Virus record (IMG/VR): IMGVR_UViG_3300035101_000015
Span: 64,001-128,000 of that record
Origin: a virus
Taxonomy: Duplodnaviria > Caudoviricetes
Length of the DNA stretch: 64,000 bases
Strand: one strand, 5' to 3'
The notes below the pieces were generated by a model. That model saw only the letters and a list, made by a program, of their open reading frames with translations, searched no databases and was not told where the DNA came from. Positions 23,158-24,923 of this stretch are shown here, in pieces (within the stretch, counting starts at the first letter, position 1; each line of letters opens with the position of its first letter). The position numbers were made by a program, and so were the translations under genes.

Positions 23158-23192
23158 CCACTTGCTCCGTACGGAGCCGAAAGGAGTTCATC
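23158..23192 (+). promoter_or_regulatory. Permuted Ro-binding helix overlapping the rsr Shine-Dalgarno sequence
   Basis: CACTTGCTCC-GTAC-GGAGCCGAAAGGAG directly before the GTG at 23193. Confidence 0.6.
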
Positions 23193-24923
23193 GTGGACTA
23201 CGCATCGCAGGTCAGCAAGAAGGTCACCCCGCAGTCTGAGCAGGCGCGGGAGGACCAGGTGAAGAACTCTGCTGGTGGATTCGTCTTCCAGCTCACCTGC
23301 TGGGACCGGCTAGACCGGTTCTTGGTCCTCGGTAACGAGGGTGGCACTTACTACGCGGGAGAGCGTGAGCTCACCAAGCAGAACGCTGCCTGCATCGAGC
23401 AGTGCCTCAACGAGGATGGACCGCGCGCCGTTGCTCGCATCGCCGAGCTCAGTGTGACGAACCGCATCCCCAAGAACGACACGGCCATCTTCGCCCTGGC
23501 ACTCGCCAGTGCGCACAAGGACCAGGCCGTCCGTAAGGCAGCGTTCGCTGCTGTACCTGCAGTGTGCCGCATCGGCACGCACCTCTTCGACTACGCCAGC
23601 GCCTGTGACCACCTGCGTGGATGGGGTGAGGCGATGAAGCGCGCCATCGCCAACTGGTACCTCAGCAAGAAGCCTGAGGATGTCATGTACCAGGTAGCGA
23701 AGTACCGGCAGCGCAATGGCTGGTCCCACAAGGACATGCTCCGCCTGAGTCACGCCGTTCCTACCAACGAACTCGCTCCCATCTTCCGGTGGGTGGTCGA
23801 CTCCGAACTCGGGGAGCGCGTGGTCCAGGGAAGTGAGAAGCGTGGACGCAAACAGCGTCAGTACGCCGGCGTCGGTGAGCTCCCCGAGTACCTCGAGGCG
23901 TTCAATGAGCTGCAGTCATGCAACGAGAAGCGGGTCATCGAGCTCGTGCAGAAGTACGGGTTCACCCGCGAGATGCTGCCCACGCAGCACCTCAACTCGC
24001 TGGACGTCTGGGCGGCTCTACTGCCGAAGATGCCCATCACCGCCACGCTTCGGAACCTGGGCAAGATGACCAACATCGGACTGCTCACTCCTCTCAGCGA
24101 GGGTGCGAAGGTCGTGACGGCTCGCCTGACTGACCCGAACATTCTCAAGCGTGGGCGTGTGCATCCCATCGCGCTGCTCAACGCCCAGGCTATCTACGCC
24201 ATGGGCCACGGCATCCGCCGGATGCAGAACCGTCGGGCGGACGAGAAGGAGCCCCTCACCTGGACTCCCAACCGCGCCATCACCGACGCGCTCGACGAGG
24301 CGTTCTACCTGGCCTTCCAGGGCATCGAGCCCACTGGGAAGAACATCCTACTGGCGCTGGACGTGTCCGGCTCCATGACGGGTGGCAGCATCGCTGGAGT
24401 GCCTGGGCTCAGCCCACGCAAGGCTTCGGCAGCGATGGCCATGGTCACCGCCAAGAGCGAGAAGAACTGGCACATCGTGGCCTTCAGCTCGGGTGGCGGT
24501 CGCCGTGCTGGCGGATGGCAGTCCGGCAACTCCAGCCGTGGCATGTGGGGACACAACTCCGACGGCATCTGCCCCATCGACATCACACCGAAGATGCGGC
24601 TCGACAAGGTCCTCAAGGTCCTCGAGGGCTGGCCCTTCGGTGGGACTGATGTGGCCCTGCCGGTGCTGTACGCCTTGCGGGAGAAGATGCAGGTGGACGC
24701 CTTCGTGACGTACACGGACAACGAGACCTGGGCAGGGGACATCCACCCTCACCAGGCGCTCGAGATGTACCGTCGGGAGACCGGAATCTCCGCCAAGCTG
24801 GTGGCCGTCGGCATGACGGCAACCGACTACTCGGTGGCGGACCCGAATGACCCTGCCTCGATGAATGTGGTCGGATTCGACTCCGCTGCACCCTCCATCA
24901 TGGCGGACTTCATCCGGGGTTGA
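23193..24923 (+). CDS. rsr: Ro60 / TROVE domain RNA-binding protein
   Basis: NSAGGFVF, RFLVLGNEGGTYY, KYRQRNGWSHKDMLRLSH, RNLGKM, HPI, VWA MIDAS DVSGSM, TDNETW, GFDS; AAGGAG RBS before the GTG at 23193. Confidence 0.95.
   Translation: MDYASQVSKKVTPQSEQAREDQVKNSAGGFVFQLTCWDRLDRFLVLGNEGGTYYAGERELTKQNAACIEQCLNEDGPRAVARIAELSVTNRIPKNDTAIFALALASAHKDQAVRKAAFAAVPAVCRIGTHLFDYASACDHLRGWGEAMKRAIANWYLSKKPEDVMYQVAKYRQRNGWSHKDMLRLSHAVPTNELAPIFRWVVDSELGERVVQGSEKRGRKQRQYAGVGELPEYLEAFNELQSCNEKRVIELVQKYGFTREMLPTQHLNSLDVWAALLPKMPITATLRNLGKMTNIGLLTPLSEGAKVVTARLTDPNILKRGRVHPIALLNAQAIYAMGHGIRRMQNRRADEKEPLTWTPNRAITDALDEAFYLAFQGIEPTGKNILLALDVSGSMTGGSIAGVPGLSPRKASAAMAMVTAKSEKNWHIVAFSSGGGRRAGGWQSGNSSRGMWGHNSDGICPIDITPKMRLDKVLKVLEGWPFGGTDVALPVLYALREKMQVDAFVTYTDNETWAGDIHPHQALEMYRRETGISAKLVAVGMTATDYSVADPNDPASMNVVGFDSAAPSIMADFIRG

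What the first reader, a model, noticed from the sequence alone, without database searches (positions are those of the whole stretch)
23158..23195. Ro60-binding helix built into rsr's own ribosome-binding site (translational autoregulation)
Seen: CACTTGCTCC-GTAC-GGAGCCGAAAGGAGTTCATC-GTG has the same permuted ACTTG.../...CCGAA bulged-C helix as the tRNA inserts. It uses a compensatory GCTC/GAGC core that also occurs at 25451-25486, and its 3' strand runs into the AAGGAG SD. Inference: free Ro60 represses its own translation once the Y RNAs are saturated, like ribosomal-protein feedback. I know of no description of this for Ro60.
Basis: partly seen in the sequence, partly recalled or inferred. 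Interest (0 to 1): 0.8.

Follow-up and report, generated by a model that had tools for sequence, protein, structure and literature searches.

The report
Y-RNA look-alike hairpin at rsr start
The mRNA leader of this phage's Ro60 (rsr) gene carries, right against its ribosome-binding site, a copy of the bulged helix found in the neighbouring Y RNAs. The same arrangement is kept in about 45 other rsr genes of phages and myxobacteria, so Ro60 probably throttles its own translation, which has not been described.

Summary
At 23160-23181, ACUUG-CUCC-GUAC-GGAG-C-CGAA forms a 5-bp hairpin with a bulged C and U.G/U-A outer pairs. Its 3' strand runs straight into the AAGGAG Shine-Dalgarno (SD) sequence (23181-86), 6 nt before the GTG start (23193). 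Seven homologous Rsr proteins confirm that start.

The fold is not unusually stable (z about -0.5 to -1); the support is comparative. The closest relative (Rsr 80% identical) keeps the stem exactly but has a different tetraloop. A 56% relative has a compensatorily changed stem with identical CUUG/CCGAAAGGAG flanks.

Of 166 rsr loci fetched, 46 carry such a hairpin ending 11-23 nt before the start codon (5.2 expected). Nearly all lie in one deep Rsr clade: Polyangiaceae and two phage groups. The third stem pair covaries (C-G 20, U-A 11, no mismatch).

The same permuted hairpin sits inside the tRNA-like Y RNAs next to rsr. The leader is colinear with a whole module, its SD matching the module's GAGGG(UUAUC) strand.

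Best reading (about 0.55): a Ro60-binding-site mimic that gives negative translational autoregulation. Binding and repression are untested. No Rfam family matches and no paper was found.

The parts
22873..22901 (+). Promoter-like motif TGCAAA-N17-GATAAG ahead of the first Y RNA. It is the likely start of the transcript that carries the Y RNAs, the leader hairpin and rsr.
Evidence: The block is almost invariant between the window and L004 (alignment A4). The sigma-70 scan finds no other promoter in 22600-25700.
22908..23052 (+). Canonical-orientation Y RNA with a tRNA-like domain. Its stem is GCAGCAGAC[C]GG ... ACUUGUCUGCUGC.
   Evidence: weak stem-bulge RNA (sbRNA)/Y-like Rfam match.
23090..23156 (+). 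Small canonical Y RNA (GAGCGAC[C]GGAU...GGGUUAUC...ACUUGUCGCUC) followed by a U5 run. The U-run and CUCU can pair with the SD.
   Evidence: The stem covaries in L004 (GAACGGC/GCCGUUC) and the U-run is kept. Alternative fold GCUCUUUUU/GAAAGGAGU, -14.1 kcal/mol.
23160..23181 (+). The finding: the permuted Ro60-type helix ACUUG-CUCC-(GUAC)-GGAG-C-[C]-GAA. One of C23177/C23178 is bulged. Outer pairs are U23163.G23179 and U23162-A23180.
   Evidence: Conserved in L004 and L005 and in about 45 rsr leaders.
23181..23186 (+). Shine-Dalgarno AAGGAG, directly abutting the 3' strand of the helix. It is colinear with the GAGGG of the Y-module motif GAGGGUUAUC.
23193..24923 (+). rsr, the Ro60 orthologue (TROVE + vWA_Ro60), starting at GTG.
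   Evidence: Pfam E 6e-44 and 6e-55. PDB 1yvp, 9nen and 2nvo at E 1e-110 to 1e-105. Start confirmed.
25453..25485 (+). Downstream Y module with the same UUGCUC/GAGC[C]GA core as the leader hairpin, followed by GUUGAAGGGUUAUC.
   Evidence: (covariance-model (CM) hit 16.3 bits) and 69.
25096..25380 (+). Three permuted hairpins of the UUGUCY/RGAC[C]GA type (25096-111, 25227-45, 25364-80) inside tRNA-like RNAs. These are the presumed genuine Ro60 ligands that the leader imitates.

Best explanation
The rsr leader contains a stripped-down, circularly permuted copy of the Ro60-docking module of the neighbouring Y RNAs. In this copy the helix that Y RNAs form from their 5' and 3' ends is closed by a tetraloop. 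The strand that Ro60 mainly contacts in Y RNAs (GGUCCGA there, GGAGCCGA here) continues directly into the Shine-Dalgarno sequence.

rsr is made from a polycistronic transcript that also carries the Y RNAs. Ro60 binds the full Y modules first. When Ro60 is in excess over them, it occupies the leader hairpin. Bound there, the 60-kDa ring covers the SD and start region and blocks 30S binding. In some lineages it would also stabilise a fold that pairs the SD. Ro60 synthesis is thereby matched to Y RNA supply. This is the logic of ribosomal-protein, ThrRS and MS2-coat operators.

Shown: the structure, its position, and its conservation and covariation across a deep Rsr clade; its identity in type with the hairpins of adjacent Y-like RNAs; and the correct start codon. 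Inferred: Ro60 binding, the competition with Y RNAs, and the sign of the effect.
For: 1. Anatomy: the hairpin with a bulged C and U.G/U-A pairs abuts AAGGAG, 6 nt before GTG.
2. Closest relative L004 (Rsr 80% identical): the stem is 100% kept, the loop is changed (GUAC to UUCG), 3 nt are inserted before the SD, and the flanks diverge. In the same comparison the adjacent Y RNA stem shows compensatory changes.
3. L005 (56% identical): the stem is GCCCGG/CCGGGC, with CUUG and CCGAAAGGAG identical to the window.
4. 46 of 166 rsr loci have a G..C[C]G hairpin ending between -50 and -8. That is 6.7 per kb against 0.75 per kb background, with 5.2 expected (Poisson 1e-27; loci are not independent). The bulged C lies 11-23 nt from the start codon.
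5. Covariation in 31 non-redundant leaders: the third pair is C-G 20 / U-A 11 with 0 mismatches. The fifth pair is GC 20, AU 3, GU 3, CG 2, UA 1. The outer pair is U.G 23 / C-G 8. Sliding the partner column drops pairing from 98.6% to 31-65%.
6. Rsr tree: 43 of 45 hairpin-bearing genes fall in one 75-member clade with path lengths above 1 substitution per site. The tree needs 10 state changes against 39 in shuffles.
7. A covariance model of the leaders hits almost only the rsr strand. Besides leaders, it finds hairpins inside tRNA-like/Y-like RNAs 100-900 nt downstream of rsr.
8. The leader is colinear with whole Y modules, with CCGAA-AGGAGUUCAUC against CCGAAGUUGAGGGUUAUC.
9. Published: Ro60 contacts mainly the GGUCCGA strand, and Y RNAs upstream of rsr are processed from one precursor (PMC4201824).
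Against: 1. There is no binding or expression data.
2. The hairpin is thermodynamically ordinary (z -0.5 to -1).
3. The alignment used for covariation was collected with a scanner that demands pairing and the G..CCG anchors, so the percentage paired is partly by construction.
4. Many of the 46 loci are close relatives, for example 13 Sorangium genomes.
5. The core next to the bulge is G-C (GAGC[C]GA). It is U-A in vertebrate Y RNAs and A-U in this phage's own canonical Y RNAs, so recognition by Ro60 is assumed, not known.
6. The element is absent from actinophage, verrucomicrobial and many other rsr leaders.
7. Pairing between the anti-SD and the SD is not conserved (mean z about 0; absent in L004).
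8. A U5 run just upstream may terminate most transcripts.
Confidence: 0.55

Rival explanations
1. Ro60 does bind the leader hairpin, but the outcome is not translational repression. Bound Ro60 might protect the 5' end of the processed rsr mRNA, as it stabilises Y RNAs (positive feedback). It might open an SD-sequestering fold. Or it might serve in cis loading or processing of the polycistronic Y RNA-rsr precursor.
For: Y RNAs need Rsr for stable accumulation and come from polycistronic precursors (PMC4201824). In the window and in Sorangium the minimum-free-energy fold pairs the SD with an upstream CUCUUU/CCUCU tract in a register that competes with the U.G/U-A pairs of the Ro-type helix. Ro60 binding could therefore free rather than hide the SD.
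Against: The SD lies 0-8 nt from the helix in most loci, inside any plausible footprint of a 60-kDa ring. The anti-SD pairing is not conserved. From general knowledge, known proteins whose own leader mimics their RNA target at the RBS are repressors.
Confidence: 0.15
2. The hairpin works without Ro60. It would be a structural leader element: a 5' stabiliser, a standby or SD-modulating hairpin, a thermometer-like switch or a processing signal. Its likeness to the Y module would reflect descent from a duplicated module rather than shared protein recognition.
For: The rsr loci are arrays of duplicated modules, so copies arise easily. In Sorangium a perfect anti-SD CCUCU pairs with GGAGG across the hairpin (-10 kcal/mol), and in the window the equivalent pairing gives -8.6.
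Against: The parts that are invariant are exactly those that define the Ro-type helix: the UUG/C[C]GR flanks, the bulged C and the G-C closing pair. The loop, the distal stem and the anti-SD all drift. A generic stabilising hairpin has no need of a bulged C followed by G.U. The element is confined to rsr leaders and to Y-like RNAs: genome-wide pattern hits in three Polyangiaceae genomes were otherwise antisense Walker-A codons.
Confidence: 0.2
3. It is a non-functional relic or a chance resemblance: a decayed last unit of the Y RNA array that happens to lie before rsr.
For: The motif is short. A 16-base version of it occurs by chance more than 120 times in the metagenome collection, and none of the 80 stretches returned is near rsr. 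Fold energy is not significant.
Against: It is retained at the same place across Rsr proteins only 45-56% identical, with compensatory stem changes and free loop variation. The enrichment in the 42-nt leader window is ninefold.
Confidence: 0.07

Closest known systems
Ro60-binding helix of Y RNAs (vertebrate Y RNAs, D. radiodurans Yrn1/Yrn2; Rfam RF00019, YrlA RF02553)
   Same: Both have a bulged C between a C-G pair and G.U/A-U pairs. The purine-containing strand ..GNCCGA(A)G.. is the one Ro60 mainly contacts (PMC4201824). Both lie next to rsr on the same strand.
   Different: Here the helix is closed by a tetraloop where Y RNAs have their 5'/3' ends, which is a circular permutation. It lies in an mRNA leader. 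It lacks the tRNA-like or loop effector domain. The pair next to the closing C-G is G-C. It gets no Rfam hit even at E<=10.
Autogenous translational operators that mimic the protein's main RNA ligand (E. coli ribosomal-protein leaders such as S8, S15, L1, L20; the thrS operator mimicking the tRNA-Thr anticodon arm; the MS2 coat-protein operator hairpin)
   Same: A small hairpin resembling the protein's cognate RNA site sits at or against the SD or start codon of the regulated mRNA. Competition with the primary ligand would set the protein level.
   Different: The protein is Ro60, for which no such operator is reported. Binding and repression are untested here. The comparison rests on general knowledge of those systems.
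Permuted Ro-type hairpins inside tRNA-shaped RNAs flanking rsr (this window 25051-25439; Sorangium L016:4007-4127)
   Same: Same hairpin type (yUUG-stem-loop-stem-C[C]GA) and the same order of flanking elements: a pyrimidine strand, an internal loop, the hairpin, then the purine strand GGAGG/GAGGG.
   Different: Those are embedded in complete tRNA-like bodies and carry the GGUUAYC motif. The leader copy has neither, and it is followed by a start codon.

Membership tests
Ro60/Rsr protein (for the regulated gene) | TROVE (HEAT-repeat ring) domain followed by a Ro60-type vWA domain | tested here: met
   PF05731 at E 6e-44 and PF25045 at E 6e-55. X. laevis Ro60 1yvp at E 1e-110 and D. radiodurans Rsr 2nvo at E 1e-105.
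Y RNA Ro60-binding helix | Bulged cytidine flanked by a C-G pair on one side and G.U plus A-U pairs on the other, with the strand ..CCGA.. | tested here: met
   Minimum-free-energy fold and sequence. Kept in 31 of 31 aligned leaders, although the scanner required the G..CCG anchors.
Y RNA Ro60-binding helix | Helix formed by the 5' and 3' termini of a small stable RNA | tested here: not met
   The stem is closed by a 3-7 nt loop and lies in the rsr leader. This is a permuted topology.
Y RNA Ro60-binding helix | Match to the curated covariance models (RF00019 Y_RNA, RF02553 YrlA) | tested here: not met
   No hit at 23150-23200 with E<=10, and none at the Sorangium leader.
Y RNA Ro60-binding helix | Binds Ro60/Rsr | not testable with these tools
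   Needs EMSA, CLIP or RIP.
Autogenous translational operator (ligand mimicry) | Cis element in the protein's own mRNA overlapping or abutting the SD or start codon | tested here: met
   The 3' strand ends at 23180 and the SD is at 23181-86. The bulged C lies 11-23 nt from the start codon in about 45 loci.
Autogenous translational operator (ligand mimicry) | Element resembles the protein's primary RNA ligand | tested here: met
   Same hairpin type as in the adjacent Y-like RNAs. That those RNAs are themselves Ro60 ligands is inferred, not shown.
Autogenous translational operator (ligand mimicry) | Conserved with compensatory changes in orthologous leaders | tested here: met
Autogenous translational operator (ligand mimicry) | The protein represses translation of its own mRNA through the element | not testable with these tools
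   Needs reporter fusion, toeprinting or in vitro translation.
Intrinsic terminator | GC-rich hairpin followed by a U-run | tested here: not met
   The U5 run precedes the hairpin, and AAGGAG follows it. The terminator scan does not flag it.
SD-sequestering switch or thermometer (fourU/ROSE-like) | Conserved pairing of the SD with an upstream pyrimidine tract | tested here: inconclusive
   Strong in the window (-8.6 kcal/mol), in Sorangium (-10) and in L006 (-8.9). Absent in the closest relative L004 (-2.2). Mean z about 0 over 42 leaders.

The most novel reading that the evidence does not exclude
rsr leaders of a deep clade (Polyangiaceae myxobacteria, at least two phage groups, and isolated others) carry an undescribed cis-regulatory RNA. 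It is a circularly permuted mini Y-RNA module whose purine strand is the Shine-Dalgarno sequence. Through it, Ro60 senses the ratio of free Ro60 to Y RNA and represses its own translation. It would be the first autoregulatory circuit known for Ro60. It would also define a roughly 20-nt minimal Ro60 ligand.
Probability: 0.5. Interest if true: 0.8.

Novelty: new member of a known kind. Interest (0 to 1): 0.72.

Why it matters
Ro60 and Y RNAs are conserved from bacteria to humans, and Ro60 is a major autoantigen. How cells set the Ro60:Y RNA ratio is unknown. Published work reports only that Y RNAs depend on Ro60 for stability.

A conserved Y-RNA mimic at the rsr ribosome-binding site offers a concrete, easily tested feedback loop: gel shift plus reporter fusion. 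It also gives a natural minimal binding element showing which helix features Ro60 needs, namely the bulged C, the G.U pair and the closing G-C, while the loop is free.

It further supports the view that the permuted hairpins inside tRNA-shaped RNAs beside rsr are true Ro60 docking sites. For phages, it suggests that Ro60 dosage is tuned to the phage's own Y RNA set.

Tried and rejected
1. Thermodynamic significance. Folds of the hairpin, and of longer leaders from six loci, are within about 1-2 sd of shuffles. Stability alone is no evidence.
2. Exact leader sequence in IMG/VR: no match. A single-protein search for relatives in IMG/VR also found nothing. Profile-based searches were needed.
3. 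Metagenome scan with CTTGCTCCNNNNGGAGCCGA: more than 120 hits. All 80 returned are chance matches with no rsr on the held DNA, so the motif is too short for database-wide searching.
4. A Ro60 regulon. The pattern YTYGCCCG..CGGGCCGR in three Polyangiaceae genomes gave 13-20 hits each. The recurrent hit CTTGCCCGCGCCGTTCGGGCCGA is the antisense of the ABC-ATPase Walker A motif GPNGAGK. It is not an RNA element.
5. A conserved anti-SD helix as the real operator: rejected as a general feature.
6. An alternative start at TTG 23076, as in an existing 614-aa gene call (P0002): rejected by homologue N-termini.
7. Nearest annotated phages (Gordonia Cashline, Mycobacterium Cali and Farewell): they have Y RNAs upstream of rsr but no leader hairpin.
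8. P0004 (80% identical Rsr, syntenic 33.6-kb contig): the DNA was not retrievable.
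Full report
**Setting.** The window is part of a 145.8-kb phage record. At 23193-24923 (+) it encodes a Ro60 orthologue with TROVE and vWA_Ro60 domains. [quoted passage not shown]

- Three modules have the canonical orientation (5' stem'-C[C]GG ... ACUUG-stem 3'): 22908-23052 with a tRNA-like domain, 23090-23151 followed by U5, and 24978-25044.
- Five are 'permuted' hairpins (ACUUG-stem-loop-stem'-C[C]GA): the finding at 23162-23180, three at 25096-25111, 25227-25245 and 25364-25380 inside tRNA-like genes, and one at 25453-25485.

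**The observation.** The minimum-free-energy fold gives the following:

- CUCC/GGAG plus a G-C closing pair, with a GUAC loop;
- one bulged C, then U23163.G23179 and U23162-A23180;
- CC 23158-59 paired with GG 23183-84 of the SD.

AAGGAG (23181-86) begins the base after the helix, and GTG follows 6 nt later. The 25453 module shares the UUGCUC/GAGC[C]GA core.

The fold is not thermodynamically special (-8.6 kcal/mol, z -0.47). Chance is judged better by position. Loose ACUUG..CCGA hairpins occur about twice per strand per 64 kb elsewhere in the window. None of those has an equally good stem and short loop. In the whole phage record, the core pattern with a proper stem occurs only at the leader and at the 25453 module.

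**Start codon.** 354 phage Ro-like proteins align from residue 1-2. The nearest homologues begin MDYASQVSKK or MVNYAEQVSKK at the position of GTG 23193. An existing 614-aa gene call (P0002) starts in frame upstream and would read through the Y RNA.

**Comparative test, close relatives.** A protein search found relatives at 80% (P0003, P0004) and 56% identity (P0005). Polyangiaceae proteins follow at about 52%, closer than any annotated actinophage at about 44%.

- L004 (P0003) is syntenic. Its leader reads ...CUUUUUACCCCCC-ACUUGCUCC-UUCG-GGAGCCGAA-caa-AGGAG-uccac-AUG. The stem and flanks are identical, the tetraloop is replaced and 3 nt are inserted before the SD.
- In the same comparison the stem of the preceding Y RNA shows compensatory changes and the surrounding spacer diverges.
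- L005/L006 (P0005) read CCUUGCCCGG-aggga-CCGGGCCGAAAGGAG-agcaac-AUG. The stem is different but complementary, and the CUUG / C[C]GAAAGGAG frame is the same.

**Comparative test, wide sample.** A profile of these proteins fetched 80 genome loci and 80 IMG/VR loci. I located each rsr start by tblastn projection and SD context, then scanned the leaders.

- 46 of 166 loci carry a G...C[C]G hairpin (stem of at least 5, loop of at most 8, outer pair) ending between -50 and -8. That is 6.7 per kb, against 0.75 per kb in rsr coding sequence and on the opposite strand. The expected number is 5.2. The Poisson value of 1e-27 is overstated because many loci are related.
- The bulged C lies 11-23 nt from the start codon, and the SD follows the helix by 0-8 nt in most loci.
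- Carriers include 13 Sorangium genomes (cuuuuGCCCGG-nnnn-YCGGGC[C]GGAGGuggugucAUG, where the SD itself is the outer 3' strand).
- They also include Polyangium, Byssovorax, Minicystis, Chondromyces and several Polyangiaceae MAGs (metagenome-assembled genomes), plus an Armatimonadota MAG.
- Two IMG/VR phage groups carry it as well (for example CCUUGCUCGUGG-guu-UCACGAGC[C]GAA..GGAG).
- A further phage group (L093, L095, L149, L160) has what looks like a variant with an A-U closing pair (..CAGU[C]GAAUAAGGAG). I read this by eye only.

**Covariation.** In 31 non-redundant leaders (A3) the pairs counted as follows:

| Pair | Counts |
|---|---|
| Closing G-C | invariant |
| Second pair, C-G | 30 of 31 |
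| Third pair | C-G 20, U-A 11, no mismatch |
| Fourth pair, C-G | invariant |
| Fifth pair | GC 20, AU 3, GU 3, CG 2, UA 1 |
| Outer pair 1 | U.G 23, C-G 8 |
| Outer pair 2 | U-A 17, U.G 12 |

Sliding the 3' partner by 1-3 columns drops pairing from 98.6% to 31-65%. Loops vary freely and include a UUCG tetraloop.

There is a caveat. The set was gathered by a scanner that demands a paired stem and the G..CCG anchors, so overall pairing is partly by construction. The invariance of the second and fourth pairs and the clean C-G/U-A alternation at the third are not.

**Phylogeny.** On a FastTree of 160 Rsr proteins, 43 of 45 hairpin-bearing genes fall in one 75-member clade. The window groups there with L004, L006 and a Polyangiaceae MAG. 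Path lengths exceed 1 substitution per site. The tree needs 10 gains or losses against 39 in label shuffles. One 'absent' member, L103, is cut at the contig end. The element has therefore been kept over deep divergence, but it is not universal. Actinophages, the large verrucomicrobial group and many others lack it.

**Relation to Y RNAs.** A covariance model (CM) built from the leaders gave 135 hits at E<=1 in about 0.95 Mb searched on both strands. Only eight of them were on the strand opposite to rsr.

- Besides leaders, it found hairpins 100-900 nt downstream of rsr in Polyangiaceae and phage loci.
- In Sorangium these sit inside tRNA-like RNAs. L016:4007-4127 is a tRNA match with a long insert...GUCCUCC-GCCCGC-UUGCCCG-acc-CGGGC[C]GAA-GGAGGAC-GGUUACC.... 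This is the same design as the window's tRNA-like RNAs.
- Aligning the window's leader with its four downstream modules shows colinearity: a pyrimidine tract, a short internal loop ending AC, UUG-stem-loop-stem-C[C]GAA, then a purine tract.
- In that alignment the leader's AGGAG-UUCAUC corresponds to the modules' GAGGG-UUAUC. The ribosome-binding site therefore looks like the purine strand of a Y module.

**Specificity controls.** Genome-wide pattern searches in three Polyangiaceae genomes found the rsr leader and the module. Otherwise they found mostly the antisense of ABC-ATPase Walker A codons. A metagenome-wide search with a 16-base version returned only chance hits. The motif is informative only in its context.

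**Mechanism.** Published work says that X. laevis Ro60 contacts mainly the GGUCCGA strand of the bulged helix. It also says that bacterial Y RNAs upstream of rsr are processed from polycistronic precursors and need Rsr for stability (PMC4201824).

Here that strand (GGAGCCGA) continues into the SD. No promoter fits between the upstream Y RNA's U-run and the hairpin. A promoter-like block at 22873-22901 is conserved in L004. So rsr is most likely translated from a read-through or processed Y RNA-rsr transcript that carries the hairpin.

The simplest reading is competition. Ro60 in excess over Y modules binds the leader mimic and occludes the 30S site, giving negative translational autoregulation. 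I put this at about 0.55.

- In the window and in Sorangium, an upstream CUCUUU/CCUCU tract can also pair with the SD across the hairpin (-8.6 and -10 kcal/mol).
- That pairing is missing in the closest relative and is not better than shuffles overall. I treat it as lineage-specific reinforcement, not the core mechanism.
- The rivals are Ro60 binding with a different outcome (0.15), a Ro60-independent structural element descended from a module (0.2), and a relic or chance resemblance (0.07).

**Novelty.** Rfam 15 has no family matching the leader in the window or in Sorangium. Full-text searches (Rsr/Y RNA/autoregulat*; Ro60/Y RNA/translational repress*; YrlA/Ro60) found no description of an rsr leader element or of Ro60 autoregulation. 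The same holds for the key bacterial Y RNA paper and the 2025 phage Ro60 structure paper. The 2020 Annual Review was not available.

Autogenous control by ligand mimicry is a classical kind. This would be a new member of it, for a protein family where none is known.

Earlier notes of this scan record the same reading of this stretch from another window, and describe the neighbouring Y RNAs. I used them only as leads.

Noticed in passing
window 23057-23085: A 9-bp hairpin (CCUUCACCA...UGGUGGAGG) lies between the two upstream Y RNAs. L004 has a different but complementary stem at the same place (GCCUUCGCCGA...UCGACGAAGGC). It may be a processing or spacer element.
   Followed up: partly
window 23151-23156; L004:1422-1427: A U5 run directly after the stem of the small Y RNA is conserved in L004 (CUUUUUACC). 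It could act as a partial terminator or attenuator before rsr, as a Y RNA 3' tail, or as an anti-SD.
   Followed up: partly
L020-L086 (verrucomicrobial rsr loci), about -45 to -25 from the rsr start: A different conserved leader hairpin, GUGCCGAGAGUUGGCGGCAC, contains both CCGA and UUGG. It follows the 3' strand (AACUUGUCCGCAG) of a canonical Y RNA. It might be another way of placing a Ro-type site before rsr.
   Followed up: no
L093, L095, L149, L160 leaders: A hairpin is followed by U[C]GAAUAAGGAG, with an A-U pair in place of the G-C closing pair. It looks like a compensatory variant of the same leader element, and my scanner missed it.
   Followed up: no
L016:3859-4505 and similar Polyangiaceae loci: Downstream of rsr there are arrays of tRNA and tRNA-like genes, some with a 50-nt insert carrying the permuted hairpin plus GGUUACC. 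There is also a sub-threshold Y_RNA (RF00019, 29 bits) / sbRNA match at 4434-4505. Three ordinary tRNA genes lie just upstream of the leader (1566-1895).
   Followed up: partly
window 22907-23052 and 24977-25044: The GGGUUAUC motif of the phage Y RNAs draws weak matches to the nematode stem-bulge RNA family RF01656, which contains eukaryotic Y RNA relatives.
   Followed up: no
window 23076-23192: Public gene calling (P0002, 614 aa) extends rsr upstream through the small Y RNA and the leader hairpin. Homologues show the true start is GTG 23193.
   Followed up: yes
window 20152-22775 and 25587-25943: The gene neighbourhood is AAA_5 (MoxR-like) ATPase, then DUF2201 vWA/metallopeptidase, then rsr, then PTH2 peptidyl-tRNA hydrolase on the opposite strand. 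The same order is kept on the contig of the 80%-identical relative P0004.
   Followed up: partly
Three Polyangiaceae genomes searched through L016, L039 and L012 (for example L172-L182): CTTGCCCGCGCCGTTCGGGCCGA recurs many times per genome. It is the antisense of Walker A codons (GPNGAGK) of ABC ATPases, so it is a trap for hairpin-motif searches in high-GC genomes.
   Followed up: yes
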